Below are positions 1,320-63,572 of a stretch of 64,000 nt of DNA, one piece after another (the first letter of the stretch is position 1; each line of letters starts with the position of its first letter). This DNA comes from Mobula hypostoma (taxonomy: Eukaryota), in assembly GCF_963921235.1 (NCBI RefSeq), contig NC_086097.1:147624001-147688000 (forward strand). Direction: 5' to 3'. The position numbers and the translations under genes were made by a program. The notes under the pieces were generated by a model. The model had not been told where the DNA came from. It saw nothing but the letters and a program-made list of their open reading frames with translations, and searched no databases.

Positions 1320-2650
1320 ACACACATCAAAGTTGCTGGTGAACGCAGCAGGCCAGGCAGCATCTCTAGGAAGAGGTACAGTCGAAGTTTTGGGCTGAGA
1401 CCCTTTGTCAGGACTAACTGAAAGAAGAGCTAGTAAGAGATTTGAAAGTGGGAGGGGGAGGGGGAGATCCAACATGATAGAAGAGGACAGGAGGGGGAGG
1501 GATGGAGCCAAGAGCTGGACAGTTGGTTGGCAAAAGGGATACGAGAGGATCATGGGATAGGAGGCCCAGGGAGAAGGAAAAGGGGGAGGGGGGGGGAAAC
1601 GCAGAGGATGGGCAAGGGGTATAGTTAGAGGGACAGAGGGAGAAAAAGGAGAGTGAGAGAAAGAATGTGTGTATATAAATGAATGGATGGGGTACAAGGG
1701 GGAGGTGGGGCATTAGCAGAAGTTAGAGAAGTCAATGTTCATGCCATCAGGTTGGAGGCTATCCAGACGGAATATAAGCTATTGTTCCTCCAATCTGAAT
1801 GTGGCTTCATCTTTACAGTAGAGGAGGCCATGGATAGACATATCAGAATGGGAATGGGATGTGGAATTAAAATGTGTGGCCACTGGGAGATCCTGCTTTC
1901 TCTGGTGGACAGAGCGTAGGTGTTCAGCAAAACGATCTCCCAGTCTGCGTCGGGTCTCGCCAATATATAGAAGGCCACATCGGGAGCACCAGACGCAGTA
2001 TATCACCCCAGCCGACTCAGAGGTGAAGTGTCGCCTCACCTGGAAGGACTGTCTGGGGCCTTGAATGGTGATAAGGGAGGAAGTGTAAGAGCATGTGTAG
2101 CACTTGTTCCGCTTACAAGGACAAGTGCCAGGAGGGAGATCGGTGGGGAGGGATGGGGGGACGAATGGACAAGGGAGTCGCGTAAGGAGCGATCCCTGCA
2201 GAAAGCGCGGGGGGGGAGGGAAAGATAGGGGGGAGTCCTTCCAGGTGAGACGACACTTATATACACATATTCTTTCTCTCACTCTCCTTTTTCTCCCTCT
2301 GTCCCTCTGACTATACCCCTTGCCCATCCTCTGGGTTTTACCTCCCTCCCCCTTTTCCTTCTCCCTGGGCCTCCTGTCCCATGATCCTCTCATATCCCTT
2401 TTGCCAATCAACTGTCCAGCTCTTGGCTCCATCCCTCCCCCTCCTGTCTTCTCCTATCATTTCGGATATCCCCCTCCCCCTCCCACTTTCAAATCTCTTA
2501 CTAGCTCTTCCTTCAGTTAGTCCTGATGAAGGGTCTCAGTCTGAAACGTCGACTGTACCTCTTCCTAGAGATGTTGCCTGGCCTGCTGCATTCACCAGCA
2601 ACTTTGATCTGTGTTGCTTGAATTTCCAGCGTCTGCAGAATTCCTTGTGT
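1320..2650 (-). mobile_element. Penelope-like element, fold-back insertion: GIY-YIG end plus inverted terminal copy
   Basis: GVIYCVWCSRCGLLYIGETRRRLGDRFAEH (GIY-YIG) on the minus strand. 1320-1680 is inverted relative to 2259-2610. Probable TSD TTGGGTTCA(CA/TG)TT at 1307-1319 and 2651-2663. Confidence 0.9.
2519..2554 (+). ncRNA. Minimal hammerhead motif, core intact, weak stem II
   Basis: AGTC CTGATGA AGGGTCTCAGTCT GAAACGTC GACT. Confidence 0.6.
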
Positions 2651-2663
2651 TTGGGTTCATGTT

Positions 2664-6365: not shown

Positions 6366-6709
6366 AAACAGTCCTACAAACCCAGGACGGGTCTTCTCAT
6401 GCCACCAGCCTCCAACCTCTGGTGTATTCACAGATTCACAGATATCGGGTCTTCCACTTCCACAACAGACATACAGTCTCACGATTCCAAGTCCGTCCTC
6501 AGCCATCGGACCTTGACTTTCAGACTTCCGATCCATCTTCAAGCTTCAATCTGCCAGTATCGACCTGGGACTCATTAATGACAATGAATGAGGTCCCTAC
6601 ACTCCAGGTCTCAAACTTCATACTCACCAATAATGGAACCCTGAACATTTGGCCTCGAACTCCATTCTCACCAGCTCTGTACCCAGCAAGTCACTAGTCC
6701 TCATGCCAC

Positions 6710-7055
6710 AAACAAGAGAAAATCTGCAGGTGCTGGAAGTCCGAGCAACACACACAAAATTCTGAAGGAGCTCAGCGGGCCAGGCAGCATCTATGGGGAA
6801 AAAATACAGTCGATATTTCGGCCGACATCCTTCAGCAGGACTGGAGAAAAAAAAGTTGAGGAGTAGATTTAAAAGGTGGGTGGAGGGGAGAGAGAAACAC
6901 CCGGTGATAGGTGAAAACTGGAAGGAGAAGGATGAAATAAAGAGCTGGGAAGTTGATTAGTGAAAGAAACAGAAGGCCATGGAAGAAAGAAAAAGAGGGG
7001 TGGAGCACCAGAGGGACGTGATGGGCGGGCAAGTAGATAAGGTGAGGGAGAGGGA
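6710..7055 (-). mobile_element. Penelope-like terminal fragment
   Basis: Same terminal sequence as other PLE copies, with a degenerate hammerhead at about 6808-6843. Confidence 0.8.
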
Positions 7056-10000
7056 CAAGATAGGCTGAAGCCAGCATGGTTTCATGAAGGATTGATCCTG
7101 CCTCACCAACCTATTGGAATTTTTTGAGGTAATCTCGAATAAGATTGACAAGGGAGAGGCTGTGGATGTTGTGTATTTGGATTTTCTTTTTCTTTCTTTT
7201 TCAATCTTTTTATTAGTTTCATAAAATACAAACATAACATAGCAATAATACAAAATTGTTGGAAATACATTGTTATACTTAAAATGAGTAATTGTAAAAC
7301 CAAATAGTATAAATTGACAAAACTCCCAATCATGTAGGATAACACAATGAATGTGTACAGGACAAAAAAAAACTCGAGAAAAATCATGAAAAAGAAAAAA
7401 AATAGGAAAAAAACCCCCACCCCAAAAAAAACTAAACTAAACAGAATTAGTCAACTAAACTAAAAAGACTTGGGCAATTCTAACAACGTAAAAATGGAAG
7501 AGAAGAAAACCTTAGTGTCGACGACTCCATTCCTCTCAACCAACAGTACAGAGAAGTAAAATAAGTTTGGAAATGGTCAAATTACATCATATGAAAATGC
7601 TGAATAAATGGCCTCCAAGTTTTTTCAAATTTAATGGAAGGGTCATAAACCACACTTATAATTTTTTCCAAATTCAAACACAACATAGTCTGTGAAAACC
7701 AGTGAAATACAGTAGGAGGGTTAATCTCTTTCCAATTCAGCAAAATGGATCTTCTAGCCATTAAAGTAAGAAATGCAATCATCCGGCGTGCTGAAGGGGT
7801 TAAATGATTTGAGTCTATCATTGGTAATCCAAAAATAGCAGTAATTGGGTGAGGTTGTAAGTCTGTATTCAAAACTGTTGAAATCATATCAAAAAATATC
7901 TTTCCAATATTTTTCCAACAAAGGACATCACCAAAACATGTGAGTTAAAGAGGCTATCTCGGAATAACATCTATCACATACAGGATTAATATAAGAATAA
8001 TAACGAGATAGTTTATCTTTGGACATATGAGTCCTGTGCACTACTTTAAACTGTATCAACACATGTTTAGCATATATAGAGGATAAATTAACCAATTGAA
8101 GAATTTTTTCCCATTTTTCAATCGGTATAATAATCTTAAGTTCTCTTTCCCAATCAGTTTTAATTTTATTGGAAACATCAGGACATAAATTCATAATTAT
8201 GTTATAAATAATTGCTACAACACTTCTCAGAGAGAGATTTAGATCTAAAATTTTTTCCAAAGTATCCATTGGATATGAGTGTGGAAAATTAGGAGAAGCA
8301 GTAATTAAAAAGTTTCTAATCTGTAAGTATCTAAAAAAGTGAGATCTGGGTAAATTATATTCATTAGAAAGTTGATCAAAAGACACGAAACAATTATCCA
8401 AAAATAAATCACGAAAACATACTATACCTTTGGTTTTCCAATCAAAGTAAGCTTGATCCATAGTGGAAGGTTGAAAAAGTAAATTAGATATAATAGGACT
8501 TGCTAAAATAAATTGATTGAACCCAAAAACTCTTCGGAATTGAAACCATATACGTAAAGTATGCTTAACTATTGGATTATTCATTTGTTTATACAATTTA
8601 GAAGAGATAAAAGGAAGCGAAGTTCCTAAAACCAAACCCAAAGAAGACCCTTGTAATGAATTACATTCAAGATTTACCCAATGTGGATTTAAGGATATAT
8701 TCAAATCTCATAAACAAAATTTTAAGCATTGAATATTAATTGCCCAATAATAAAACCTAAAATTCCGGAGGGCGAGCTCCCCCTCTTTTTTAGATTTCTG
8801 TAAATACCTTTTACCTAGCCTAGGATTTTTGTTCTGCCATATATATGAGGAAATTTTTGAATCAACATTATCGAAAAAAGATTTTGGGATAAAAATTGGA
8901 ACCAATTGAAATACATATAGAAATTTAGGCAAAATAATCATCTTAATAGCATTAATCCGACCAATCAAAGACAAAGAAATTGGTGATCATTTAATAAACA
9001 AAAGTTTAATCTGATCAAATTTGGATTTTCAAAAGGCCTTCGATAAGGTGCAGCATATGAGGCTGCTTAATAAGATGAGAGCCCATGGAATTATAGGAAA
9101 GATATTGAAATGGGTGGAGCATTGGCTGATAGGCAGAAAGCAAAGGGTGAGAATAAAGGGATCCTATTCTGATTGGTTGCTGGTTACTAGTAGTGTACCA
9201 CAGGGGTCGGTGTTGGGGCCACTTCTTTTTACGAGGTATATCGATGATTTGCATTATGTATTAAATGGTTTTGTGGCTAAATTTGCGGATGACACCAAGA
9301 TAGGTGGAGGAGCAAGAAATGTTGAAGAAACAGAAAGGTTGCAGAGAGACTTAGTCAGTTTAGGAGAGTGGGCAAAGAAATGGCAGATGAGATACAACGT
9401 TGACAAATGTACGGTTGTACATTTTGGAAGAAGAATTATTATTAGATGGGCAGAAAATTCAAAAATCGGAAGTTCAAAGGGACTTGGGGGTCCTCGTGCA
9501 GGATACCCTAAAGGTTAACCACCAAGTTGGATCGGTGGTAAGGAAAGCGAATGCTATGTTGGCTTTCATTTCAAGAGGAATAGTGTATAAGAGTAAGGAG
9601 GTGTTGATGAGGCTCTATGGGGCATTAGTGAGACCTCATTTGGAATACTGTGTGCAGTTTTGGGCCCCCTATCTTAGAAAGGATGTACTGATGTTGGAGA
9701 GAGTTCAGAGAAGATTTACGAGGATGATTCCTGGAATGCAGGGGCTAACATATGAGGAGCGTTTGTCGGCTCTCGGACTGTATTTATTAGAGTACAGAAG
9801 AATGAGAGGGGATCTCATAGAAACATTTCGAATGTTGAAAGGGTTGGACAGAGTAGATGTGGAAAGGTTGCTTCCCTTGGTGGGTGAGTCCAGGACAAGA
9901 GGCCATAGTCTTAGAATTAGAGAGTACCCAGTTAAAACAGAGATGAGGAGAAATTATTTTAGCCAGAGGGTTGTGGATTTGTGGAATTCGTTGCCACATA

Positions 10001-10195: not shown

Positions 10196-10199
10196 TGAG

Positions 10200-11448: not shown

Positions 11449-12304
11449 ATGCCACATGCCACCTGTACACACAAAACACCTGTCTTGAAACCTGCCAACA
11501 ACTCATTCTCGTTTACATGTGGGGCCACCACCCCACGTCCTCACTGGTCTGCTAGCCTAACATCCATCCATCGATGTATTCCTTACACATCCACATGACA
11601 TTTGGCAGAATAACAGTTCAGCATGGACTAGACAGGCTAAGTAGCCTATTTCTATGCTGTATTGCTCTGACTATATGTCTCTATGAAAAGAAATTTTGTT
11701 TATTTCGCCACTGTGTTCAGTACAGACATCCTGTCTTGTGATGGAGAGTTGCACAATCATGCACTCATTTATCTGAGTTTTAAAAAATTGCAAGACCACA
11801 TGGAAAGCATTGTGGAGTGATGTAGAATGGGATTGAGCTACCAGCAGCCAACAGAAGGCTGAATGTTCCTTTCCTCATGCTATGATGGATTTGCTTTGAA
11901 ATATATTCATTACAACTATACAAACCAATGTATGAACTATTTTCGACAAAGAAGGATCCCACAAACATTAATCAGCTGAATAGCCAATTAATTAGACACA
12001 TAACTATTCCTTCAACATCTTTTGGATTCTATTGAATTCAAAATCTATTGACCTAGAGCAACATATAATCAGCCGATTCAGTTTCAAATTAAAGACAAAA
12101 GGCCTATCTCTGATCAAAAATTACTATAAAAGGTCATCTTTATGATTCGTATACCTTATTAGTTCACCAACCTTAATATTCCTCCATTTTATCTCAATAA
12201 CAAATTGCCCATCCATTATCCAATCTGTGGTCCCTTGGGCAAAATAAGTCCACACCATTTTCATTTAATTTATATTCTGAACTGATATAAGACAGAGGAA
12301 CAGA

Positions 12305-13835
12305 ATTAGACAAAGGAGAATTGCTTGATGTTGTGTACTTGGATTTTCAGAAGGCCTTAGACAAGATGCCTCACATGAAGCTACTTAACAAGCTACGAGC
12401 CCATGGTATTACAAGACAGATTCTAGCATGGACAAAGCAGTGGCTGATTGGCAGGAGGCAAAGAATGGGAATAAGGGGAACCTTTTCTGGCTGGCTGCAG
12501 TGCCAGGAAGTGCACGCCATGCACTTCAGTAGAAGAAGCGAAAGGGGTGACAATTTTCTAAATAGAGAGAAAATAAGTGCAAAGGGAATGGGGAGTCCTT
12601 GTGATTCCCTAAAAGGTTAATTTGTAGTTTGAGTCTATGGTGAGGAAGGCAAAGGCAATGTTAGCATTAATTTCAAGAGGGCTAGAATATAAAAACCAGG
12701 ATGTAATGTTGAGGCTTCATATTTGGACAATTCTGATTTGATGGAGAATGGACATGAAAGCACAGAGGAACATCTGGAGAAATTTCTGAAACGCCCTTTT
12801 GCTGCTGTCGTTACTGTGTGGTTTGGAATCTTTCGGAGGGTAGGCCTCAAAATCCCCGGCCTTGCCTGCTTTTGTCGACCGAGAAGGAGGTCGAATCGTT
12901 CAGACAGAGATGGCGCTCAGTACTCGGTGTCGGAGAGCTGATCAGAGCTCGAAGTTTTCAGATGACTCAGAGTCAGATTGTGGTCAGCATGGCAGGGAGA
13001 GTTTTTCTTCCTTCTCCCGTCTGCGTGAGATGTGGGACATTTGAGAAACTTTGAACTTTACTGTGCTCACAGACTTCTTTATCAAGTTATGGTATTGTTA
13101 CACTGTTTGTAACTACATGTTATAATTATGTGGTTTTGTCAGCTTTTTCAGTCTTGGTTTGTCCTATGTTTTGTGATATCACACCGCAGGAAATAATGTA
13201 TCATTTCTTAATGCATGCATTACTAAATGACAATAAAAGAGGACTACGTGTCTTCATAATCATAATAAAGCACTGGTGAGGCCTCACTTGGAATACTGTG
13301 AGCAGATTTGGGCCTCTTATCTGAGAAAGGTTGTACTGAAACTGGAGAGGATTCAAAGGAGGTTCACAGAATTGATTCCAGGATTGAATGCTTGTCACAC
13401 GAAGAGCGCTTGATAACGCTGGGCCTGTATTCACTGGAATTCAGAAGAATGAGGTGACTTCATTGAAATCTATTGAATGGTGACAGGTTTTGATAGAGTG
13501 GATGTGGAGAGAATGCTTCCTACGGGGGGGAGAGTCTAAGACCAGAGAGAGGACACCGCTTCAGAATAAAGAGGGGTCCTTTCAGAACAGAAATGAGGAG
13601 GAATTTCTTTAGCCAAAGAGTGGTGAATCGATGGATTTTTTTCCATAGGCAGCTGTGGAGGCCAAGTCCTTATGTATATTTAAGGCAGAGGTTGATAGAT
13701 TCAGAGCATGAAGGGATATGGGGAGAAGGCAAGAGATTGGGGCTGAGCAGAAAATTGAATCAGCTGTGATGAAATGGCAGAGCAGACTCAATAGGTCAAA
13801 TGGCCAATTTCTGCTCCTATATCTTCCGGTCTTAT
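12305..13835 (+). mobile_element. CR1 LINE 3' part, interrupted at 12723-13266
   Basis: DVVYLDFQKALDK, with the ALVRPHLEYC remnant resuming after the insertion, then the CR1 3' UTR. Confidence 0.85.
12723..13266 (+). mobile_element. Unclassified non-coding retroposon (second copy at 42190-42795, minus)
   Basis: Interrupts a CR1 coding region, ends in AATAAA followed by an (ATAATC)-type tail, and has a close reverse-complement copy in the window. Confidence 0.75.
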
Positions 13836-18150: not shown

Positions 18151-18329
18151 ACCTCTGGGCTTCCCCTCTCCCCTTTCTTCCTCCCTCGGCCTCACATCCC
18201 ATGATCCTCTCATATCCCTTTTGCCAATCAACTTTCCAGCTTCTTGGCTCCATCCCTCCCCCTCCTGTCTTCTCCTATCATTTCGGATCTCCCCCTCCAC
18301 CTCCTACTTTCAAATCTCTTACTATCTCT

Positions 18330-19168
18330 TGTTACGAGAATACACATAAAATTAAGATGTTTGCTGGCCTGGGCTAGCATCAGTGGCATCAGCAGTTGGT
18401 CTGCCACCTGCCCTCAGGGGAAGGAGAGATAAGGAACAATGGAGCAGCGTCTGGAGATGTGTAATGAAGGGATGTGGGAGGGAGAGCTGTCTGGAGCGGC
18501 TCCCCCCTTTGAACTCTGAACTGTTTGAAGTGATGGACAGGCGATACCCCAGCAGGGGGATAAAAAGGGACAGGTTCGCTAAGACAGACACACGCCACCC
18601 GAGGTAACAAGACCCTGGAAGTGGTGCGCCTCTCACGAGTGGGTGAGAAGTGCCAGACAACGACAAGGGTGGAAAGGTACGATCAGCGGGAACCCGGTGT
18701 GTGTCCGCCCTTGCCTGGGTGCCGGGTTCACTGCAGAGGATCGACCACATCTGGAGGAGGGGTCACAGTCGGTGACCTCAGGTGACATCACCAAGGACCC
18801 GCCCAAAAGCTGGTCTGTGAGCCATCTTGCTGGTCTGTGAGTGAAGCAGTGTTCTGAATGATCAGTTGTTCCTATTCTATCTCTCTCTTCCCCAACGATT
18901 ACTGCGAACTGAACTACTAACTGGACTGAACTTTGAGTCATTTTGAAATTGGTCATTTACCCCTAGACAACGATAGAGCTTGATTGATGCTGTTATCTTA
19001 ATGCTGTGCACATGTGTGTTTATCATCACTGAACTGTTGCATTTATTATCCTTTCGATTACTGTGTTGCTTGTTTCTTTAATAAAACTTTCTTAGTTCTA
19101 GTACTCCAGACTCCAACTGAGTGATCCATTTCTGCTGGTTTGGCAACCCAGTTACGGGGTACGTAACA
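18330..19168 (+). mobile_element. Solo LTR (839 bp)
   Basis: TGTTACG...CGTAACA termini, 4-bp TSD CTCT, TATA-like GATAAAAA near 18559, AATAAA near 19080, CpG-rich. Confidence 0.88.
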
Positions 19169-19182
19169 CTCTTCTTTCAGTT

Positions 19183-19218
19183 AGTCCTGATGAAGGCTCT
19201 TGGCCCGAAACGTCGACT
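19183..19218 (+). ncRNA. Minimal hammerhead motif, core intact
   Basis: AGTC CTGATGA AGGCTCTTGGCCC GAAACGTC GACT; one stem II mismatch. Confidence 0.65.
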
Positions 19219-19514
19219 GTACCTCTTCCTAGAGCTGCTGCCTGGCCTGCTGCGTTCACCAGCAATTTTATGTGTGTTGCTTCTATTAATAGAACTGGGC
19301 CTTCCTTACTGATCTGCTCTGGGTTGCCATAATGTGTTCACAGTGACTTTCACTTGCCTAGATTCAATTCCTAATATCAAAATCAACTTCTTGTTGGGCT
19401 TAACATGTGCTGTTTAAATAAGTTCCCTTGCTTTTTCCACTAATACCTGCTATATTTTTTCTCTTCAATGTCTCTTACAATAATTGTATCTTCTCACCTG
19501 CACATGATCAAAGT

Positions 19515-19903
19515 AAGCTGCAGTGAGTTATAAACTTAATCAGCTCCATCATGGGAACTAGCCTACGTGTATCCAGGACATCTTCAAGAAGTGATGCTCA
19601 AAAAGTTGCCGTCCATCATTATGGACACCCATCAGCCAGGACATGCCCTCTTCTCATTTCTACCTTAGCCAGGAGGCACATACTCAACGATTCAGAAACA
19701 GTTTCTACCCCTCTACCATCCAATTGCTGAATGAACATTTTACCCTAGAACACTACCTCACTACTTTTGTTATTTGTATTTTGCACTATTTATTTAAATT
19801 AACTATTTTATATATATATATATATACTTACTTTATTTTACAGTTTTTTCTATATTATGTAATGCATTGTACTGCCGCCACAAAGTTAATATATTTCACG
19901 ACA
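19515..19903 (+). mobile_element. Rex1-like LINE 3' end (tail resumes at about 21562-21600)
   Basis: TQRFRNSFYPSTIQLLN C-terminal motif and a 3' UTR that continues after the PLE. Confidence 0.7.
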
Positions 19904-21550
19904 AACACGAGGAAACCTGCAGATGCTGGAATTTCAAGCAACACACATAAAAGTTGCTGGTGAATGCAGCAGGCCAGGCAGCATCTCTAGGAAGAGGTAC
20001 AGTCGACGTTTCGGGCCAAGACCCTTCGTCAGGACTAACTGAAAGAAGAGCTAGTAAGAGATTTGAAAGTGGGAGGGGGAGGGGGAGATCCAAAATGATA
20101 GGAGAAGACAGGAGGGGGAGGGATGGAGCCAAGCGCTGGACAGGTGATTGGCAAAAGGGATATGAGAGGATCATGGGACAGGAGGCCCAGGGAGAAAGCC
20201 TAGGGAGGGGGGGAAAAAGCCCAGAGGATGGGCAAGGGGTATAATGAGAGAGACAGAGGGAGAAAAAGGAGAGAGAGAAAAAGAATGTGTGTATATAAAT
20301 AAATAACAGATGGGGTACGAAGGGGAGGTGGGGCATTAGCGGAAGTTCGAGAAGTCAATGTTCATGCCATCAGGTTGGAGGCTACCCAGACGGAATATAA
20401 GGTGTTGTTCCTCCAACTTGAGTGTGGCTTCATCTTTACAGTAGAGGAGGCCGTGGATGGACATATCAGAATGGGAATGGGACATGGAATTGAAATGTGT
20501 GGCCACTGGGAGATCCTGCTTTCTCTGGCGGACAGAGCGTAGGTGTTCAGCAAAACGATCTCCCAGTCTGCGTCGGGTCTCGCCAATGTATAGAAAGCCA
20601 CATCGGGAGCACCAAACGCAATATATCACCCCAGCCGACTCACCTGGAAGGACTGCCTGGGGCCCTGAATGGTGGTAAGGGAGGAAGTGTAAGGGCATGT
20701 GTAGCACTTGTTTAGCTTACAGGGATAAGTGCCAGGAGGGAGATCGGTGGGGAAGGATGGGGGGAACGAATGGACAAGGGAGTCGCGTAGGGAGCGATCC
20801 CTGCAGAAAGTTGGGGGTGGGGAGGAAAGATATGCTTAGTGGTGGGATCCCGTTGGAGGTGGCGGAAGTTATGGAGAATTATATGTTGGACCCAGGGGCT
20901 GGTGGGGTGGTAGGTGAGGACCAGGGGAACCCTATTCCTAGTGGGGTGGCAGGAGGATGGAGTGAGAGCAGATGTGCGTGAAATGGGGGAGATGCGTCTG
21001 AGAGCAGGGTTGATGGTGGAGGAAGGGAAGCCCCTTTCTTTAAAAAAAGGAGGACATCTCCCTCGTCCTGGAATGAAAAGCCTCATGCTGAGAGCAGATG
21101 TGGCGGAGATGGAGGAATTGCGAGAAGGGGATGGCATTTTTGTAAGAGACAGGGTGAGAAGAGGAATAGTCCAGATAGCTGTGAGAGTCAGTAGGCTTAT
21201 AGTAGACATCAGTAGATAAGCTGCCTCCAGAGATAGAGACAGAAAGATCTAGAAGGGGGAGGGAGGTGTCGGAAATGGACCAGGCAAACTTGAGGGCAGG
21301 GTGAAAGATGGAGGCAAAGTTAATGAAGTCAACGAGCTCAGTGTGCGCGCAGGAAGCAGCGCCAATGCAGTCGTCGATGTAGCGAAAGAAAAGTGGGGGA
21401 CAGATACCAGAATAGGTTTGGAACATAGATTGTTCCACAAAGCCAACAAAAAGGCAGGCATAGCTGGGACCCATACGGGTGCCCATAGCTACACCTTTAG
21501 TTTGGAGGAAGTGGGAGGAACAAATGAGAAATTATTAAGAGTAAGGACTA
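19904..21550 (-). mobile_element. 5'-truncated Penelope-like element: RT, GIY-YIG endonuclease and hammerhead terminus
   Basis: MGTRMGPSYACLFVG, FRYIDDC, TDVYYKPTDSHSYLDYSSSHP and YIGETRRRLGDRFAEH, with frameshifts. 11-bp TSD ATTTCACGACA (19893-19903, 21551-21561). Confidence 0.95.
20001..20036 (-). ncRNA. Minimal type I hammerhead ribozyme motif (best copy)
   Basis: AGUC-CUGACGA-A-GGGU(CUUG)GCCC-GAAACGUC-GACU: stem I AGUC/GACU, intact core, 4-bp stem II, palindromic ACGU helix III, GUC cleavage triplet. Confidence 0.8.
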
Positions 21551-21765
21551 ATTTCACGACATACTGTATGCTGGTGATATTAAAGCTGATCTGATTCTAT
21601 TTCTCACATCCTCTTTGACAGCTCTTCATTGTAGCTCTCTCATCTTTCACCTGTTTTACCTTTCATTGTTTTTGTCAATCCTCTTATGGTTCTCTTGTCA
21701 TTCTTCTTACTATACTCCAACTAACACATTCATATCTTGACTTTCAACGTGTTTTATCTCACTTA

Positions 21766-22963
21766 CATAGAAACATAGAAAATAGGTGCAGGAGTAGGCC
21801 TTTCGGCCCTTCATGGCTGATCATCCAACTCAGAACCCTGTACCAACCTTCCCTCCATACTCCCTGATCCCTTTAGCCACAAGGGCCATATCTACCTTCC
21901 TCTTAAATATAGCTAATGAGCTGGCCTCAACTGTTTCCTGTGGCAGAGAATTCCACAGATTCAACACTCTCTGTATGAAGAAGTTTTTCCTAATCTCGAT
22001 CCTAAAAGGCTTCCCCTTTATCCTCTAACTGTGACCCTTCGTTCTGGACTTCCCCAACATCAGGAACAATCTTCCTACATCTAGTCTGTCCAATCCCTTT
22101 AGGATTTTATACGTTTCAATAAGATCCCCCCTCAATCTTCTAAATTCCAACGAGTATAAGCCTAGTCGAATTCATATGAAAGTCCTGCCATCCCAGGAAT
22201 CAATCTGGTGAACCTTCTTTGTACTCCCTCTATGGCAAGAATGTCTTTCCTCAGATTAGGGGACCAAAACTGCACACAATACTCCAGGTGTGGTCTCACC
22301 AAGGCCTTGTACAACTGCAGTAGCACCTCCCTGCTCCTGTACTCGAATCCTCTTGCTATGAATGCCAGCATACCATTCGCCTTTTTCACCGCCTGCTGTA
22401 CCTGCATGCCCACTTTCAATGACTGGTGTATAATGACACCCAGGTCTCGTTGCACCTCCCCTTTTCCTAATTGGCCACCATTCAGATAATAATCTGTTTT
22501 CCTGTTTTTGCCACCAAAATGGATAACCTCACATTTATCCACATTAAATTGCATCTGCCATGAATTTGCCCACTCACCTAACTTATCCAAGTCACCCTGC
22601 ATCCTCTTAGCATCCTCCTCACAGCTAACACTGCCGTCCAGCTTCGTGTCATCCGCAAACTTGGAGATGCTGCATTTAATTCCCTCGTCTTAGTCATTAA
22701 TATATATTGTAAACAACTGGGGTCCAAGCACTGAGCCTTGCGGTACCCCACTAGTCACTGCCTGCCATTCTGAAAAGGTCCGGTTTATTCCCACTCTTTG
22801 TTTCCTGTCTGCCAACCAATTCTCTATCCACATCAATACCTTACCCCCAATACCGTGTGCTTTAAGTTTGCACACTAATCTCCTGTGTGGGACCTTGTCA
22901 AAAGCCTTTTGAAAATCCAAATACACCACATCCACTGGTTCTCCGCTATCCACTCTACTAGTT
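21766..22963 (-). mobile_element. CR1 LINE 3' end
   Basis: [27 protein letters not shown] and LVRPHLEYCVQFWSP motifs; (ATGTTTCT)n tail. Confidence 0.93.
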
Positions 22964-23148
22964 ACTGTGTGCTTCTTACTTCAGAGAAGGAAACAATGAG
23001 ATTAGAGTAATTCATGCAACTGGCTCCGCCAAGCAGTTAAATCATAATTAATTTGCACAAATCCCCATCATGCTTCTACTGCTTCATAAAGCTTTATACC
23101 TCAACCTGCCAATGTCTTAAAAATGTCAATAATTGAGGCCATCTATGC

Positions 23149-26097: not shown

Positions 26098-26870
26098 ATC
26101 TATGCAGTTAAATGGCACAGAATCCAGATTTCTACATCTTGTGTAAAACTTTTGATTCCCTAATTTCACCTCTATTTGGCCCACTGATTTTAAGTTGGAG
26201 CTACCCATTAGAAGAATTCGTCCTGAAGAAGTGACTAGGCTCAAAATGTCGACTGTTTCCTCTTTTCCTAGTTGCTGTCTGACCTGCTGAGTTCTTCCAG
26301 CATTTTGTGTGCGTTGCTTTGAGAAGAATTAGTTGCTCTGTATTTATTGCATCAAATACTTTATTATTTTAACTACTTCAAAAATCAGCTTGTAAATAAA
26401 AAGGACTGAAAAATAAGTTAACAAAATCTTTTTTCATATTCTAAATCTTTCACCTCTGTATGTGCTTTCCCCTCTCTAAAGGGCATATATCTCCATAAAG
26501 TACGTTGGCCAAAGCTGAATGCAGCACTCCATAAAGAAACTCAACAAACTTCTATAGAGGAAGCATCATTTTCTACTATGAAATAATAGAACAATTAATT
26601 CCTCCAAAAGTGGTTAATGCTAGCCTAAAACTAAAAACCTGTCAACATAAAATAATTTGTGCAGTAATACATTCTGCCACTGGGTGTCAGGAAAATATAA
26701 TATACTGCCTTTTGATGTCAGAAAGTTTAGTTGAGGTAACTAAAAAAAAACTGCACATACTTAGCACCCTTAATGGCATTAGGCCATCCTAATGAAGGAG
26801 GCACATGGCTTCATGGGAGATGTGAATAGTTATTGTCACTTATGAAGAAATTATATTCCATATTGTAAGT

Positions 26871-28028
26871 CAGTGGTCCCCAGCGAGAAACCGATATGAT
26901 TTGGCGATACGAGTCAGCTGCACCTTTCCTCATTCCCTGTTACGGTCACTGTTGAGCTTGAACGCACGCAAGGTCATTACCCACGCGTCATCCATGTCAG
27001 CGCGGGAAGGAGATCAACTCCTCGAGCTTGCAAATGACAGCGGGCTGAAAAGTATGTTTGACATAACACCTCTGCCGGCATTCTGGATCAAAGTCAAGGT
27101 TAAATATCCTGAGATAACCACGAATGCACTGAAAACGTTGCTTCCATTTCCAACATATCTCTGCAATGAATGCAACGAAAACTAAATTGCGGAATAGACT
27201 GGACATAAGGAACCCCCTTCGAGTATCGCTGTCTCCCATTACCCCTCGATAGGACCGTGTTGTTGCAGGGAAACAAGCCCAGGGCTCCCACTGATTCAGC
27301 TATATTGTTGTGTTGCAATGGTTTTATATGTTCATATGGGGAAAATATGTGCTGTGTGTTAAATATCCAAACATTACTTAAAATGTTATGATGCTATTGA
27401 CTAATATAACAATATAACCATATAACAATTACAGCACGGAAACAGGCCATCTCGGCCCTTCTAGTCCGTGCCGAACGCTACTCTCACCTAGTCCCACCGA
27501 CCAGCACTCAGCCCATAACCCTCCATTCCTTTCCTGTCCATATACCTGCCTGATTTTTCTTTAAATGATAATATTGAACCTGCCTCTACCACTTCTACTG
27601 GAAGTTCGTTCAACACTTACTTCAAGCTCCCCTGATAATTGACTTATCGCTATATTCATGCGAGGAAAATTTGCAGTGTGTGTTTAATATTAAATTCGTC
27701 AGATAAACCCTTTTAGAAACGAAGTTGAGTGTATTAGCCACTTATCACCTATATTCCGGCTGTGATTAACACCCCTCCCGCTGAACAGAATCGCCATAAA
27801 TGATTTGTAGAAAAAAATTGTCACGTACACGCATGCGCACTGGTGCCTGTGCAAGGCATCATGGTCATTGTAGTCTTTCTTGGGGTAAACACAACGTATT
27901 TGACTGATACTCTTGTCCGTTGGCAACCCTACAACCCCCCCCCCCCGCCCCACCCCAGGTCGGCCGGTCCGCAAGAATCTTGTCCATATGAAACCGATCG
28001 GCAATGCAAAAAAGGTTGGGGACCCCTG
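26871..28028 (+). mobile_element. Composite non-autonomous hAT element, copy 1
   Basis: CAGTGGTCCCC / GGGGACCCCTG termini, perfect TSD TTGTAAGT, transposase C-terminal remnant FWIKVKVKYPEI..ALKTLLPFPT. Confidence 0.92.
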
Positions 28029-28039
28029 TTGTAAGTCAT

Positions 28040-28420
28040 AAACACCAGAAAGTCTGCCAATGCCAGAAATACACATCAACGCACACAAAATGCTGGAGGA
28101 ACTCAGCAGGTCAGGCAGCATCTGTGGAAATTAATAAACAGTCGATGTTTTAGGCCGAGGCCATCCTTCTTCAGGACTGAGAAGGAAGGAGGAAGACACC
28201 AGAATAAAAAGGTGGGATGAAGAAAAGGAAGCTAGTCAGAAGGTGATCGGTGAGACCAGGTAGGTGGAAATGGTCAAGGGCTGGAGGAAAGGGAGTCTGA
28301 TAGGAAAGGAGAGTGAACCATCGGAAAAAGGGAAGGAAAAGGAGACCATTGGAAAGTAATAGGCAGGTGAGAAGAAGTAAAGTGTCAAAGTGGGGAATTG
28401 AGGATGGAAAGGGCAGAGAA
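28040..28420 (-). mobile_element. Older Penelope-like terminal fragment
   Basis: PLE terminal motif ATGCTGGAGGAACTCAGCAGG with a degenerate hammerhead. Confidence 0.75.
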
Positions 28421-29653: not shown

Positions 29654-29958
29654 GCAGAACCTGTTTACTGGAAGGAGAAATCGATATTCATGCCATCAGT
29701 TTGGAGCCTGCCTGAGGGTGGCCTCATCTTGCCACAAGAGGAGGCCATGGACCAACATGATAGAATGGGAATGGGAATTAAAGTCCCATTCATCAACACT
29801 GGAAAGCAGCCTTTGTTCTGATGGGTAACTATTTTTTTTACCCCATGTGTGCTTCCTCCATGATTGTCCAAATCTTGACTGACTGAAACTGAAGAGTCTG
29901 CTATTTGTGGAGCCACTTACCAAGAAAGAGAAGCCTGTATACAACCACAATACCCCTA

Positions 29959-30587
29959 ACATCTACGCTCTGTCTGCCAGAGAAAGCAGGATCTCCCAGT
30001 GGCCACACATTTTAATTCCACATTACATTCCCATTCTGACATGTCTATCCACGGCCTCCTCTACTGTAAAGATGAAGCCACACTCAGGTTGGAGGAACAA
30101 CACCTTATATTCCGTCTGGGTAACCTCCAACCTGATGGCATGAACATTGACTTCTCTAACTTCCGCTAGGCCCCACCTCCCCCTCGTACCCCATCTGTTA
30201 CTCATTTTTATGCACACATTCTTTCTCTCACTCTCCTTTTTCTCCCTCTGTCCCTCTGAATATACCTCTTGCCCATCCTCTGGGTCACCCTCCCCCTTGT
30301 CTTTCTTCCCGGACCTCCTGTCCCATGATCCTCTCGTATCCCCCTTTGCCTATCACCTGTCCAGCTCTCGGCTCTATCCCTCCCCCTCCTATCATTTTGC
30401 ATCTCCCCCTCCCCCTCCAGCTTTCAAATCCCTTACTCACTCTTCCTTCAGTTAGTCCTGACGAAGGGTCTCGGCCTGAAACGTCGACTGTACCTCTTCC
30501 TAGAGATGCTGCTTGGTCTGCTGCGTTCACCAGCAACTTTGATGTATGTTGCTTGAATTTCCAGCATCTGCAGAATTCCTGTTGTTT
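29959..30587 (+). mobile_element. Penelope-like 3' fragment
   Basis: Endonuclease C-terminus, 3' UTR and hammerhead terminus. Confidence 0.9.
30454..30489 (+). ncRNA. Minimal hammerhead motif, core intact
   Basis: AGTC CTGACGA AGGGTCTCGGCCT GAAACGTC GACT. Confidence 0.72.
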
Positions 30588-31139: not shown

Positions 31140-32215
31140 AATACAAAGCTCCATTTAGTGGAAAAGTTCTAACTCCAAAATAAAAGTTATCTATCAATTT
31201 GGTTCCACTATAAAACAGTCCCTCCAATATATGGGACACAGAAACATGAAACACCTTCCATATCCCTAGAATCTCTGCTCACTGAAGAGATACATTGATG
31301 ATGAAATTCACCATTGCCTTCAGTACACCAGCCAACAAAGAAAATGAGTATTTCAAGATCAAAGCCTCAAACTTAGTCCAAAACTCATGATTGATTGATC
31401 AGCAATGACCCTTGTTCTCCTACAAATTTCTGATTTATGAAACACCTACAACAAAATATTAGTAAGATATCACCTCTGAAGGTGCCTTGAAATCTTCCAA
31501 ACCTACAGGATGGCAGTCAAGTGCCAGAGTCTTCTCCTAGGCTAATATCACTAGCAAGGACCCCAAATGCTTCCAGTAACACATCTTTTGTATGCTTGAA
31601 ACCAAGCTCCCAAAGCAGACACTTTATTCCAAACTCTGTCATGGGAATGAATTACCAGATAGTCAGAAACAATTGTTCAACAGCATTCTCAAAGTGTGAT
31701 CGATGACCATTCAAATTGGTGAAGAAGTGTTCAGGTAAGCACTGAAGTCATCAGTGTGGTGGGAGAAGATCCACATTCCTGACAAACTACTTACCAGCTG
31801 CCAGATCAGGCACTTTATGTTCATCTGCGGTGATTTTCTCGTATCCCCTTTTGCCTATCACCTGTCCAGCTCTTGGCTCTATCCCTCCCCCTCCTGTCTT
31901 CTCCTATCATTTTGGATCTCCCCCTCCCCCTCCAACTTTCAAATCCCTTACTCACTCTTCCTTCAGTTAGTCCTGACGAAGGGTCTCGGCCTGAAACGTC
32001 GACTGCACCTCTTCCTACAGATGCTGCTTGGCCTGCTGCGTTCACCAGCAACTTTGATGTGTGTTGCTTGTCAGAACCGATATTATTTTTTTAAGTCAAG
32101 AGAAGATAAAGCCTGATATAACACCATCAGTCCAAGAACTGCCACCTACTGGATTACTTCATACTCAAAATAATGTATCAAATGGATGCTTCCATCACTC
32201 ACACCATGGTGGGTA
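31140..32215 (+). mobile_element. Highly decayed RTE-like LINE, interrupted by a PLE terminus at 31830-32070
   Basis: IDDEIHHCLQ-like remnant and nucleotide resemblance to an RTE 3' end. The PLE part is clear; the RTE part is weak. Confidence 0.55.
31969..32004 (+). ncRNA. Minimal hammerhead motif, identical to 30454-30489
   Basis: Same 36-nt sequence. Confidence 0.72.
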
Positions 32216-36058: not shown

Positions 36059-36294
36059 ACAAACGAGAAAATCTGCAGATGCTGGAAATCTGAGCAACAC
36101 ACACAAAATGCTGGAGGAACTCAGCAGGCCAGGCAGCATCTTTGGGGAAAAAAAGTACATTCAACGTTTCGGGCCGAAGGCCTTTGGCAGGACTGAAGGG
36201 TTCCAAAGGGTTTCAGCCTGAAACGTCGACTGTACTTTTTCCCATAGATGCTGCCTGGCCTGCTGAGTTCCTCCAGCATTTTGTGTGTGTTGCT
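36059..36294. mobile_element. Miniature fold-back PLE derivative in RHPN1 intron 1
   Basis: Two PLE termini in inverted orientation; 36093-36141 is the exact reverse complement of 36246-36294. Confidence 0.9.
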
Positions 36295-37199: not shown

Positions 37200-37573
37200 G
37201 TGAGTGTTGGGCAAGATTAACCTAACATGGGTTGTTATGAAGACTTGATCATCTGAGCATTAGTGCATCTTTATCTGTTTAACAAACCCTTTTCTAAACA
37301 GTATAATCTTGATGTGCACAGTATAAAGGGGAAATTGGCATGTTGTAAAACATGTTGCACATTTCACAATTATCATTAGGTACAAAGTATCACAATTTCT
37401 TTTGACTGATTTGGAAGAACAACTGATGCCAGGAATACTTAAGTCTGGAGTTACACCGAGCAGTTTAAGGAACACATTCATATCCCTTTCAAATCCATTT
37501 GCTCACTGCATATGTTAGCAATTTTTACTCTTGAAGTACTCTTGAAGTCAGAAAACATTATCTTAACAGCTAC

Positions 37574-37649
37574 ACACATCAAAGTTGCTGGTGAACGCAG
37601 CAGGCCAGGCAGCATCTCTAGGAAAAGGTACAGTTGACGTTTCAGGCTA
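37574..37649 (-). mobile_element. 76-bp PLE terminal insertion in RHPN1 intron 2
   Basis: 14-bp TSD ATCTTAACAGCTAC (37560-37573, 37650-37663). Confidence 0.88.
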
Positions 37650-41200: not shown

Positions 41201-41830
41201 ATTTGAGATGATGGTGAGGAGGCATATAGGAATGAGATAGATCAACTGGTTGAGTGGTGTCATAACAACAACCTTGCACTCAACGTCAGTAAGACCAAGG
41301 AATTGATTCAGGAAGTGGAAGTCATGGAAAATGGAAAAAGATGAGCGAGCAGTTTCAAGTTCCTGGGTGTCAGCATCTCTGGAGATCTATCCTGGGCCCA
41401 ACATATTGATGCAATTGCAAAGATAGCACAACAGTGGCTATATTTCATTAGGAGTTTGAGGAGACTTGGTATGTTATCGAAGACTATTCGCAAATTTCTA
41501 CAGATACGCTGTGGAGAGCATTCCAACTGGTTGCATCAGTCTGGTATGGAGAAGCCACTGCACAAGATCAGAAAAAGCTGCACAAAGTTGTAAACTGAGT
41601 CATCTCCATCACGGGCTTTAGGCTTCCCAGCATCGAGGATACCTTCAAAAGGTGATGCCTCAAAAAGGCAACATCCATCATTAAGGACCCTCATTATCCA
41701 GAACATGCCTTCCTGTCGTTGCAGCTATCAAGGAGGAGGTACTAGAGCCCAAAGACGCTCAACATTTCAGGAGCAGCTTCTTCCCCTCTGGTGTCAGATT
41801 TCTGAATGGACAATGAGCCCATGTACACTG
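38290..41830 (+). mobile_element. Near full-length decayed Rex1/Babar-like LINE (tail at about 42800-42903)
   Basis: APE endonuclease motifs LLANVQS, GFMETWL, VAVYIPP, IAGDF, TRGTNTLDHCY; MKCFERLV and RT remnants. Confidence 0.87.
40083..40910 (-). mobile_element. Unclassified non-coding retroposon nested in the Rex1-like LINE
   Basis: Interrupts the RT region; short tandem tail at 40083-40100; GATGGCGCC-type 5' end near 40900. Confidence 0.6.
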
Positions 41831-42189
41831 CCCCACCAGGTTTCACCTATAACTTTGTGTTTCTCTCTTCCGCTGCCAATGTCACCCCCCCCCACTCTTC
41901 AATTTACTCCTCAGCTTTTTTATTCTAGTCCTGCTGAAGGGTTTCAGCCCGAAATGTCAACCATACTTGTTTCCTAGATGCTGTTTGGCCTACTGAGTTC
42001 TTCCAGCATTTTGTGTGTTGAATGAAAAGCAGAACTGGTGGCTCAATATTTCAGATGTAACAGAGATGCAAGTAAGTGAAGAGGGGCTGGTTCCTTCTTG
42101 ATATGGGAGAATATAACAGTAGTTCTCAGAGGAAACATCCTTTGAGGAATGTTCAGTGAGGCCACTTTTTTTTGTGCTCTCCTTCTACA

Positions 42190-42795: not shown

Positions 42796-43179
42796 CAACA
42801 CCAGCAACTTATTTAACTTTTGTTATTGTAATTTATAGCTTTTTGCCACAAAACAACAATCTTCACTGTGCATACCAGTGATATTAAACCTGATCCTGAT
42901 TCTAGTACAATCCTATTATTCTTACAACTATGAGCAATTTCTCTGTATACTTGCTCCTCAAATTCCACTGAATATTGGGGGATCTATAATATAGCCCCAG
43001 GAGTGTGACGATTTCCTTGTTCCTAAGTTCTACCCATGAGGCCTCATTGAACATTCCTCAGAGGATGTTTCCTCTGAGAACTACTGTTATGTTCCCCCAT
43101 ATCAAAAAGGAAACAGCCCCTCCTCGCTCGTATCTCTGTTACATCTGAAATATTGAGCTGCCAGTTCTGCCTTTCATTC

Positions 43180-43915
43180 AACACACACAAACTGCTGGAG
43201 GAACTCAGTAGGCCAGACAGCATCTAGGAAATGAGTATAGTCGACGTTTTGGGCTGAAACCCTTTGGCAGGACTGGAACAAAAAAAGCTGAGGAGTAGAT
43301 TTAAAAGGGGGGGATTGGCAGGGGAAGAGAGAAACACAAGGTGATAGGTGAAACCTGAAGGGGGAGGGAATGAAGTAAAGAGCTGGGAAGTAAATTGGTG
43401 AAAGAGACAGAAGGCCATGGAAGAAAGAAGAGGGGGGAGGAGTGCTAGAGGGAGTCGATGGGGGGGCAAGGAGATGAGGTGAGAGAGGGAAAAGGGGATG
43501 GGGAATGGTGAGGGGGGGGCATTACCAGAAGTTCGAGAAATTGATGTTCATGCCATCAGGTTGGAGGCTACCCAAACAGAATATAAGGTGTTGTTGCTCC
43601 AACCTAAGTGTAGCCTTATCACGACAGTGGACGAGGCCATGGATAGAAATATTGGAAAGGAATGGGAAGTGGAATTAAAATTGTTGGCCTCTAGGTGATC
43701 CTACTTTTTCTGGCGGATGGAGCATAGTTGTTTGGCGAAGCGATCTCCTAATCTACGTCAGGTCTCACCGATATATGTGAAGCCACCCCGGAAGCACTGG
43801 ACACAGTATATGACCCCAACAGACTCACAGGTGAAGTGTCGTCTTGCCTGGAAGGATTGTTTAGGGCCCTGAATGGTAGTGAGGGAGGAGTAGTAGGGGC
43901 AGGTCTAGAACTTGT
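43180..43915 (-). mobile_element. Penelope-like 3' fragment (inverted partial copy at about 41835-42020)
   Basis: GIY-YIG region, 3' UTR and degenerate hammerhead terminus. Confidence 0.88.
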
Positions 43916-62555: not shown

Positions 62556-63572
62556 TGAAGCAACACACACAAAATGCTGGTGGAACGCAGCAGGCCAGGC
62601 AGCATCTATAGGAAGAAGTACAGTTGACGTTTTTGGGCCAAGACCCTTCGTTAGGACTAACGGAAAAAAGAGGTAGTAAGAGATTTGAAAGTGGTGGGGG
62701 GGGGGAGACCCGAAATGATAGGAGAAGACAGGAGGGGGAGGGATGAATCTAAGAGCTGGGAAGTTGATTGGCAAAAGGGATACAAGGCTGCAGAAGGGGG
62801 AGTATCATGGGACGGAAGGCCTTGGAAGAAAGAAAGGGGGAGGGGAGCATCAGAGAATGATGGAGAACAGGCAAGAAGTTATTGTGAGAGGGAAAGAAAG
62901 TAAATAAATAAATTAGGGATGGGGTAAGAAGAGGAGGAGGAGGGGCATTAACAGAAGTTAGAGAAGTCAATGTTCATGCCATCAGGTTGGAGTATATCCA
63001 GACAGAATATAAGGTGTTGTTCCTCCAACCTGAGTGTGGCTTCATCTCGACAGTAGAGGAGGCCATGGATTGACATCAGAATGGGAGTGGGATGTGGAAT
63101 TAAAATTAAAACGTCCCATTCCCATTCCGATATGCACACATTTTAATTCCACGTCCCATTCCCATTTCTCAAGCTTCTGTTAATGCCCCTCCTCCCCTTC
63201 TTACCCCATCCCTAATATTTATTTATTTTTTCCTCTCTTTCCCTCTCACAATAACTTCTTGCCTGTTCTCCATCTTCCTCTTGTGCTCCCATCCCCCTTT
63301 CTTTCTTCCAAGGCCTTCCGTCCCATGATACTCCCCCTTCTCCAGCCTTGTATCCCTTTTGCCAATCAACTTTCCAGCTCTTGGCTTCATCCCTCCCCAT
63401 CCCACTGTCAAATCTCTTACTATCTCTTTTTTTCGTTAGTCCTGATGAAGTGTCTCGACCCGAAACGTTGACTGTATTTCTTCCTATAGGTGCTGCCTGG
63501 CCTGCTGCGTTCCACCAGCATTTTGTGGGTGTTAATTGAATTTCCAGCATCTGCAGGTTTTCTCGTGTTTGC
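62556..63572. mobile_element. Fold-back Penelope-like insertion in RHPN1 intron 3
   Basis: About 62560-62960 is inverted relative to about 63170-63535; flanked by GTATCTATCTATT on both sides. Confidence 0.9.
63438..63473 (+). ncRNA. Minimal hammerhead motif with GUU triplet, sense to RHPN1
   Basis: AGTC CTGATGA AGTGTCTCGACCC GAAACGTT GACT. Confidence 0.6.

What the first reader, a model, noticed from the sequence alone, without database searches (positions are those of the whole stretch)
20001..20036. Minimal hammerhead ribozymes in the Penelope-like termini across the window
Seen: the motif AGTC-CTGANGA-A-GGGT(N4)GCCC-GAAACGTC-GACT recurs with an intact core at 2519, 19183, 20001 (minus), 30454, 31969 and 63438. 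Decayed or partial copies occur near 1380, 6808, 26220, 28140, 36160, 36205, 37630, 41927, 43240 and 62622. Where coding sequence is attached, the motif is on the PLE sense strand downstream of the GIY-YIG ORF. Known: PLEs carry minimal type I hammerheads whose palindromic helix III needs dimerisation. Inference: this genome hosts a very high-copy ribozyme-bearing PLE family, about one motif per 4 kb here. The class is known; activity in this lineage may not be.
Basis: partly seen in the sequence, partly recalled or inferred. Interest (0 to 1): 0.7.

Follow-up and report, generated by a model that had tools for sequence, protein, structure and literature searches.

The report
Hammerhead ribozyme in ray Penelope ends
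The repeated motif is a real minimal self-cleaving-RNA (hammerhead) fold at the end of a very common Penelope-type jumping gene of a ray-like fish, an arrangement known since 2014; the only twist is that one older subfamily here carries a changed core letter.

Summary
Observation confirmed. 20001-20036(-) is a textbook minimal type I hammerhead: CUGACGA, an extra A, G10.1-C11.1, GAAA, palindromic ACGU, cut after GUC. The window holds 16 Penelope-like (PLE) 3' ends bearing the motif. Six have an intact core; only 4 pass a structural descriptor (0 in 100 shuffles). They come from about 12 insertion events. The element is a GIY-YIG PLE with a CX4CxxC linker (Neptune type); its RT is 82-87% identical to its closest ray homologues. 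All 16 copies run 61-68 or 101-104 nt past the predicted cut (the known PLE 'tail'), so the integrated template was not cut there, as shown for the Anolis element. No stem covariation was found, none of the copies lies in a tandem, and cleavage was not tested. Two additions: five copies (three events) share an A6C core change at subfamily level, and a conserved 3' splice-site-like AG lies about 20 nt after the cut, where two ray gene models start their PLE-derived peptide. This scan noted the same kind in a shark genome before (e1-7857333). New member of a known kind.

The parts
20001..20036 (-). Minimal type I hammerhead: stem I 20036-20033 with 20004-20001; core CUGACGA 20032-20026; extra A 20025; stem II 20024-20013; G12-A13-A14 20012-20010; palindromic ACGU 20009-20006; C17 20005 (predicted cut 20005|20004)
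19985..19997 (-). Pyrimidine tract and AG(AG), candidate 3' splice site about 18-20 nt after the predicted cut
   Evidence: AG present at this place in 16 of 16 copies; two ray gene models begin their PLE-derived peptide here; splicing itself not observed
19903..19937 (-). About 35-nt optional 'tail' between the short terminus (about 19938) and the long terminus (about 19903)
   Evidence: 7 of 16 copies have it, 9 of 16 do not; loose ends at 19902/3 and 19937/8 in public runs
19903..21560 (-). 5'-truncated, frameshifted PLE copy: RT core (about 21560-20800), Cys linker, GIY-YIG (to about 20355), 3' UTR, hammerhead, tail
1320..2652 (.). One insertion with head-to-head arms: 1380(-) tail-less, core dead (G8A, G12A), GIY-YIG attached; 2519(+) tailed, core intact, stem II weak; 9-bp target duplication
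6708..7059 (-). Tailed copy, C at core position 6, 1-nt deletion in stem II (motif about 6808-6843)
18152..19281 (+). Tail-less copy, core intact at 19183-19218, split by a TG...CA solo-LTR-like insert (about 18331-19168)
26219..26321 (+). About 100-nt insertion made of the hammerhead plus about 70 nt only, 9-bp target duplication, G12A
28040..28188 (-). Tailed copy, G12A (motif about 28140-28178)
29906..30587 (+). Tailed copy with GIY-YIG end; fully paired motif 30454-30489 (G10.1-U11.1)
31831..32069 (+). Tail-less copy; fully paired motif 31969-32004, 97% alike to 30454, same strand, 1.5 kb away
36059..36294. One insertion, two head-to-head arms starting at or inside the hammerhead (36159- tailed, 36196+ tail-less), both C6 and A8; degenerate 12-bp target duplication (read by eye)
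37573..37649 (-). About 77-nt insertion starting inside stem II, 13-bp target duplication
41828..42163 (+). C6 copy (motif 41927-41962) with 3' flank shared with the 43239 copy
43040..43915 (-). C6 copy (motif 43239-43274) with GIY-YIG sequence; inverted duplicate partner of 41828-42163
62557..63571 (.). One insertion with head-to-head arms: 62623(-) tail-less, core dead (G5A, G12A); 63438(+) tailed, core intact with U17; 13-bp target duplication

Best explanation
The motif is the minimal type I hammerhead that EN+ Penelope-like elements carry in their pseudo-LTR, here in several subfamilies of a Neptune-type element in a batoid (ray-like) genome. Shown: fold elements, position, host element, two 3' termini, target duplications. 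Inferred mechanism: the element's RT-GIY-YIG protein nicks target DNA and starts reverse transcription inside the RNA at one of two sites about 65 or about 102 nt downstream of the hammerhead cut, on RNA not cut at this ribozyme. It usually stops early, often adding an inverted second arm. Because the ribozyme lies only 65-100 nt from the start of cDNA synthesis, nearly every truncated copy carries it, which explains the density. The ribozyme is latent: alone it folds with its core paired to the cut site. It would cleave only as a dimer and/or with help from the element's protein, in tandem source copies. The copies in this window are dead-on-arrival ends that decay neutrally.
For: All four hallmarks of PLE min-HHRs listed in PMC4209133 that can be read from one sequence are present: extra nucleotide between 9 and 10.1, G10.1-Y11.1, palindromic 15-16, U-rich 5' flank. 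RT homologues: 82-87% for the closest ray proteins, 63-75% for sharks and skate, mostly 53-63% for the rest. GIY-YIG hit E 0.00045, below Pfam's cut-off; tblastn to full RT-EN proteins down to 8e-121. Two termini 61-68 nt (9 of 16) and 101-104 nt (7 of 16) past the cut (ends placed by hand, +/-4 nt); the same two ends appear as loose ends with AT-rich flanks in runs X1, X5, X19. None of 16 copies starts or ends at the cut. Each of 3 inverted pairs has one tailed and one tail-less arm, with target duplications of 9, 13 and about 12 bp, as described in PMC3846280 and PMC8557442. In Anolis, the tail lies between two internal RT starts, HHR mutants do not affect insertion, and cleavage needs protein (PMC11167929). 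Folding: monomer MFE -13.5 against -8.7 kcal/mol for the hammerhead-shaped monomer; active-like dimer -16.3 against -37.1 for the best dimer. Core non-CpG positions differ from the subfamily majority in 0 of 100 cells against 22 of 540 downstream (p 0.022). Between subfamilies the cassette is 81% identical against 60-67% for the 3' UTR, and many contigs break from the reference exactly at both cassette borders (20036; 19999-20000) in all four runs.
Against: No compensatory stem changes. The fold is not unusually stable (z -1.46 and -0.65 for the 46-mers of 20001 and 30454). The 50 nt after the spacer are about as conserved as the cassette (76-77% vs 81%), so the conservation need not be for catalysis. 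One subfamily carries A6C, which lowers Mg2+ activity strongly in other hammerheads. No full-length or tandem source copy is in the window, and no cleavage or RNA-end data were obtained. Nearest-neighbour energies ignore tertiary core contacts. The p value rests on 12 related copies, not all independent.
Confidence: 0.85

Rival explanations
1. Cleavage is an obligatory step: tandem hammerheads cut unit-length RNA, which is circularised and copied more than once round, so that copies extend past the cut (the 2014 model).
For: Proposed in PMC4209133. A circular template would also give copies that span the cut. One contig in run X1 joins 20004, the first base after the cut, back to 19933 near the short end.
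Against: That joint is one contig of depth 16.5 among 40 joints (15 shown) and may be genomic. HHR mutants transpose normally in vitro in Anolis. The A6C subfamily spread to at least 3 sites in 64 kb. No tandem repeats of a hammerhead unit are in the window.
Confidence: 0.15
2. The motif is a vestige: the terminus is conserved as promoter, splice signal or protein-binding RNA, and the hammerhead no longer cleaves in any subfamily.
For: A6C at subfamily level; C11.1 reads U in 57% and 56% of summed contig depth in X1 and X5, 18% in X19; no covariation; inactive folds favoured; invariant AG and pyrimidine tract just downstream.
Against: All other core positions are kept across four subfamilies whose UTRs are only 60-80% alike. 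G-U at 10.1-11.1 keeps the pair. A6C variants still cleave. Minimal PLE hammerheads from other animals cleave weakly as dimers.
Confidence: 0.25
3. The short copies are a separate non-autonomous family (SINE- or retrozyme-like) that spreads as a hammerhead-bounded small RNA.
For: Insertions of about 77, 100 and 236 nt with their own target duplications consist almost only of the hammerhead and the downstream part. Animal retrozymes derive from PLE pseudo-LTRs.
Against: Their 5' ends differ from copy to copy and they fall in three different subfamilies, each of two of which also has long coding-linked members. No tandem units are present, which the retrozyme definition requires.
Confidence: 0.07
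4. Chance resemblance to a hammerhead.
For: The loose core pattern alone is barely above chance; Rfam finds no hammerhead; folding z-scores are weak.
Against: The full descriptor finds 4 against 0 in 100 shuffles (note these are copies of one ancestral motif), at the position and orientation where PLEs are known to carry it, with the PLE-specific extra nucleotide and palindrome.
Confidence: 0.02

Closest known systems
Minimal hammerheads (min-HHR) of metazoan PLE pseudo-LTRs (Cervera & de la Pena 2014, PMC4209133)
   Same: Type I topology, CUGANGA + one extra nucleotide, G10.1-C11.1, GAAA-CGU-H with no loop III, 4-5 bp helix I, U-rich 5' flank, mostly solitary on truncated copies, opposite-strand pairs 100-700 bp apart.
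   Different: Helix II is only 4 bp. No cartilaginous fish appears in the supplement part read or among the terms searched. The core variant reported there is U3-A8; here it is C6.
Poseidon PLE of Anolis carolinensis (Frangieh et al. 2024, PMC11167929)
   Same: Two 3' termini about 35 nt apart downstream of the hammerhead; copies extend past the cut; AT-rich flanks.
   Different: Different clade (no Cys linker in Poseidon). There the ORF starts in stem II; here no ORF start was seen and a splice-acceptor-like site follows the ribozyme.
Neptune (and Nematis) clade EN+ PLEs
   Same: C-terminal GIY-YIG with CCHH-type residues, CX4CxxC linker between RT and EN, tail, inverted arms, target duplications.
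   Different: No (TA)n targeting evident in this window; clade not confirmed by a tree with reference elements.
A6C hammerhead of phage Bcep176 (Perreault 2011, PMC3088659; Naghdi 2020, PMC7151607)
   Same: Same single core change.
   Different: There a single phage intergenic ribozyme with full helices; here a minimal motif in a retroelement subfamily, untested.
Non-LTR retrozymes of animals (Li, Clavereau & Pollet 2026 preprint)
   Same: Type I hammerhead, PLE origin; reported in the one chondrichthyan sampled.
   Different: Retrozymes are tandem non-coding units; the copies here are dispersed 5'-truncated ends of a coding element.

Membership tests
PLE minimal type I hammerhead | Core CUGANGA ... 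GAAA ... UH | tested here: met
   Intact in 6 of 16 copies including 20001
PLE minimal type I hammerhead | Helices I and II can pair; G10.1-Y11.1; extra nucleotide after A9 | tested here: met
   4 of 16 pass the full descriptor, 0 in 100 shuffles; 90.4% of cells paired vs 16-50% for slid controls; extra A in 15 of 15 copies that cover it
PLE minimal type I hammerhead | Palindromic, loop-less helix III | tested here: met
   Palindromic in 12 of 16 (ACGT 11, ATAT 1)
PLE minimal type I hammerhead | Covariation of stems | tested here: inconclusive
   0 of 8 pairs with a double-sided change; 406 of 500 shuffles reach the covariation score; too few, too closely related sequences
PLE minimal type I hammerhead | Self-cleavage as dimer or with protein help | not testable with these tools
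   Needs bench assay; only contigs were offered for the runs
PLE minimal type I hammerhead | Present in both pseudo-LTRs of a full element | tested here: inconclusive
   No full-length or tandem copy in the window; no genome held
EN+ Penelope-like element | PLE-type RT followed by C-terminal GIY-YIG | tested here: met
   (E 0.00045, under the curated cut-off)
EN+ Penelope-like element | 30-40 bp optional tail, inverted 5' arm, target duplication | tested here: met
   criteria
Neptune/Nematis clades | CX2-5CxxC linker between RT and EN | tested here: met
   CX4CxxC in the 20001 and 1380 copies; criterion
Neptune (as against Nematis) | RT phylogeny with reference elements | not tested
   No named reference elements among fetched proteins; choice of Neptune rests on vertebrate distribution
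Non-LTR retrozyme | At least two consecutive tandem units each with a complete hammerhead | tested here: not met
   No tandem unit in the self-comparison; definition
Rfam hammerhead families | Covariance-model match | tested here: not met
   No hammerhead family at E <= 1 in 64 kb; expected for a motif without helix III (inference)

The most novel reading that the evidence does not exclude
A whole, once-successful PLE subfamily in rays amplified with an A6C hammerhead core (parent CUGCCGA, inferred from the complementary CpG changes in the two arms of one duplication). In other hammerheads this change cripples Mg2+ cleavage and favours Mn2+. The ribozyme also sits within about 55 nt upstream of a conserved 3' splice site, i.e. 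inside the end of the element's 5' intron. Read boldly: ray genomes hold a natural experiment in which sister subfamilies with canonical and crippled ribozymes can be compared for success. Splicing would remove the ribozyme from the mRNA while unspliced RNA keeps it, and the same acceptor exonises PLE ends into host genes.
Probability: 0.3. Interest if true: 0.55.

Novelty: new member of a known kind. Interest (0 to 1): 0.25.

Why it matters
The kind is known, so the basic finding adds a lineage, not a concept. [quoted passage not shown] A genome with a copy every few kb and sister subfamilies differing at a catalytic-core position would let one test from sequence alone whether cleavage matters for spread. 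The acceptor just after the ribozyme also makes these ends a source of spurious or real exons in ray gene models.

Tried and rejected
Rfam scan: no hammerhead, 5 unrelated weak hits. No whole genome held, so no genome-wide count. A pattern scan for relatives gave 2 loci in metagenome contigs, both chance bacterial-type sequence with no hammerhead, and 0 in viral contigs. A protein-led locus search in viral contigs confirmed none of 6 candidates. Run search: no RNA holder listed. Four of 24 runs were laid, all as contigs, so no RNA ends, strand or expression could be read (only 40 of 110 variant rows, 15 of 40 joints and 24 of 1056 loose-end rows were shown). An attempt to survey A6 vs C6 across rays through exonised peptides failed: 1 hit and 4 hits, of which 3 are unrelated repeats; the two true hits start after the ribozyme. 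Covariation test negative. Downstream hairpins (inner one ending at the short terminus, outer one using the tail) are not significant (z -0.9 to -1.2 at best, +0.25 to +0.5 for three others; 1 of 28 pairs with a double change). I considered 30454/31969 as a tandem with the element's 5' part between them: no protein match in 30590-31830, rejected. A second acceptor-like site just 5' of helix I: no supporting joint among those shown, left as a lead. One search timed out and was redone. Lunse et al. 2016 is not held and may list core variants I could not see; supplement file 1 of PMC4209133 was not searchable; bioRxiv supplements were not read.

Full report
Observation. The minus strand of 20001-20036 reads as a minimal type I hammerhead: 4-bp stem I, CUGACGA, one extra A, a 4-bp stem II opened by G10.1-C11.1, GAAA, a loop-less palindromic ACGU, and C17. 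An ungapped scan found 15 matches at <=13 mismatches against 0.05 in 20 shuffles. One (11510) is not a PLE end, and two gapped or truncated copies (6808, 37632) came from BLAST, giving 16. A descriptor that also requires paired stems passes 4 of 16, against 0 in 100 shuffles; these four descend from one ancestral motif, so the control shows non-randomness of the repeat, not four independent origins. A loose core pattern is barely above chance and Rfam finds no hammerhead.

Host element. Upstream of the motif lie a 3' UTR, a GIY-YIG domain, a CX4CxxC linker and an RT core, broken by frameshifts and cut at about 21560. The RT piece has 405 relatives at E <= 1e-20 among 605 candidates. Among the 120 listed, the closest ray proteins (Mobula, Hypanus) are 82-87% identical, shark and skate proteins 63-75%, and most others 53-63%. 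The window is therefore most likely from a batoid (inference). The Cys linker marks Neptune and Nematis (PMC8557442, passages; PMC3846280, passages). I chose Neptune from its vertebrate distribution without a reference tree. The motif is sense and downstream of GIY-YIG in 5 of 5 copies with coding sequence. PLE-derived DNA is about 13% of the window by my hand-drawn intervals. In public runs, 10,153 (X1), 4,523 (X5), 46,850 (X19) and 34 (X11) contigs were laid on 436 bases of the end. This shows a very common repeat in three organisms but is no copy number.

Anatomy of the insertions. Every copy continues past the predicted cut: 9 of 16 end 61-68 nt after it and 7 of 16 end 101-104 nt after it (ends placed by hand from alignment and target duplications). 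The same two ends appear as loose ends with AT-rich flanks in three runs. None begins or ends at the cut. Three head-to-head pairs (1320-2652, 36059-36294, 62557-63571) each have one tailed and one tail-less arm and are bounded by target duplications of 9, about 12 (degenerate, read by eye) and 13 bp. Two solitary insertions of about 100 and 77 bp have 9- and 13-bp duplications. The copies at 41927 and 43239 share their 3' flank and are one insertion duplicated later. The 16 motifs thus stand for about 12 events. This is the known PLE signature. In the Anolis Poseidon element the tail lies between two internal RT start sites, ribozyme mutants insert normally in vitro, cleavage needs the protein, and no RNA-seq ends were found at the cut (PMC11167929, parts 1-2 of 4 read).

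Is it under constraint as a ribozyme? For: within subfamilies I and III, non-CpG core positions differ from the majority in 0 of 100 cells against 22 of 540 downstream (p 0.022; 12 related copies). Between subfamilies the cassette is 81% identical against 60-67% for the UTR. Many contigs leave the reference exactly at the two cassette borders in all four runs. Against: no double-sided stem change in 8 pairs; the sequence after the spacer is nearly as conserved (76-77%); folding z-scores are weak. The monomer prefers a rod in which the core pairs with the cut site (-13.5 vs -8.7 kcal/mol), and an active-like dimer scores -16.3 against -37.1 for the best dimer. That fits the low activity reported for this class (PMC4209133, parts 1-2 of 4 and supplement file 2 part 2 read). 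No direct tandem is in the window; the nearest same-strand intact pair is 30454/31969, 1.5 kb apart with unrelated DNA between.

A core variant. Five copies from three events (6808; 36159/36196; 41927/43239) have C at position 6. In a tree built without that column they need one change (support 71/61, weak; 1 of 500 label shuffles as low). The two arms of the duplicated copy read TG and CA at positions 7-8, which points to a parent CUGCCGA (inference). No present copy of this kind passes the descriptor. A6C is known from one phage ribozyme with kobs under 0.1 per min (PMC3088659, passages) and favours Mn2+ over Mg2+ (PMC7151607, part 1 of 4). Searches listed no paper joining A6C with PLEs, but Lunse et al. 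2016 on PLE hammerhead variants is not held (seen only as a citation). In the other direction, C11.1 reads U in 57% and 56% of summed depth in X1 and X5 and 18% in X19, matching five window copies.

A splice acceptor. In 16 of 16 copies a pyrimidine tract and AG precede the conserved block 19-23 nt after the cut. Two independent ray gene models (Mobula hypostoma, five isoforms; Hemitrygon akajei) begin their PLE-derived peptide at exactly this point. These are predicted proteins whose DNA I did not see, so use of the acceptor is inferred. PLEs are known to have a 5' UTR intron at the pseudo-LTR, and in Drosophila virilis it ends at the 5' side of helix I. Here the ribozyme would lie inside the intron's end.

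Mechanism. Shown: motif, position, element type, two termini, duplications. Inferred: internal priming at two sites on RNA not cut at this ribozyme, early termination, and a latent ribozyme that cleaves only as a dimer or with protein help in source tandems (0.85 for this overall reading). The high density follows from the short distance between priming site and ribozyme. Rivals: obligatory cleavage and circles (0.15; one X1 contig joins the cut to the short end, 1 of 40 joints), vestige (0.25, partly compatible with the main reading), separate retrozyme-like family (0.07), chance (0.02).

Novelty. Hammerheads in PLE ends were described in 2014, including fish Neptune elements and genome-wide solitary copies. 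A 2026 preprint found retrozymes in the one chondrichthyan it sampled (part 1 of 5 and passages). Searches listed no paper on ray PLE hammerheads (listings only; one elasmobranch repeat preprint had 0 whole-word hits). Verdict: new member of a known kind, interest 0.25; the A6C subfamily and the acceptor are leads worth a genome-wide check.

Noticed in passing
window 18331-19168: About 840-bp insert starting TG and ending CA, with a polyadenylation-like signal near its end, splitting the PLE copy 18152-19281; looks like a solo LTR.
   Followed up: partly
window 41828-42163 and 43040-43366: 339-bp inverted repeat (85%) that includes PLE ends plus shared flank, around a middle part (42189-42721) that also occurs at 12724-13260 (88%); secondary duplication or fold-back element.
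   Followed up: partly
window 20038-20062 (minus) and equivalents: A pyrimidine tract and YAG also lie directly 5' of or within helix I in all four subfamilies, like the D. virilis intron end; second acceptor candidate.
   Followed up: partly
window 19933-20004, run X1: One contig (depth 16.5) joins the first base after the predicted cut back to the short terminus; 1 of 40 joints.
   Followed up: no
window 26219, 36159, 36196, 37632: Four of 16 copies have their 5' end at or inside the hammerhead, as if cDNA synthesis often stops at the structure.
   Followed up: partly
window 10197-11451: Older PLE RT-EN fragment (72% to the 20001 copy) with an internal 180-bp duplication and no terminus.
   Followed up: no
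window 9019-10197, 21811-22965, 28422-29654, 50872-54486, 56449-57123, 58733-59374: Many LINE fragments with RT or AP-endonuclease hits; family names not tested.
   Followed up: no
window 26893-28028 and 55222-56362: 1.1-kb repeat pair (86.5%, inverted orientation) with no protein assignment; the 28140 PLE end abuts one copy.
   Followed up: no
window 30590-31830: 1.2 kb of unique sequence between two PLE ends; no PLE protein match.
   Followed up: partly
window 50468-50564: Weak U6 snRNA-like match, E 0.65, far below the gathering score.
   Followed up: no
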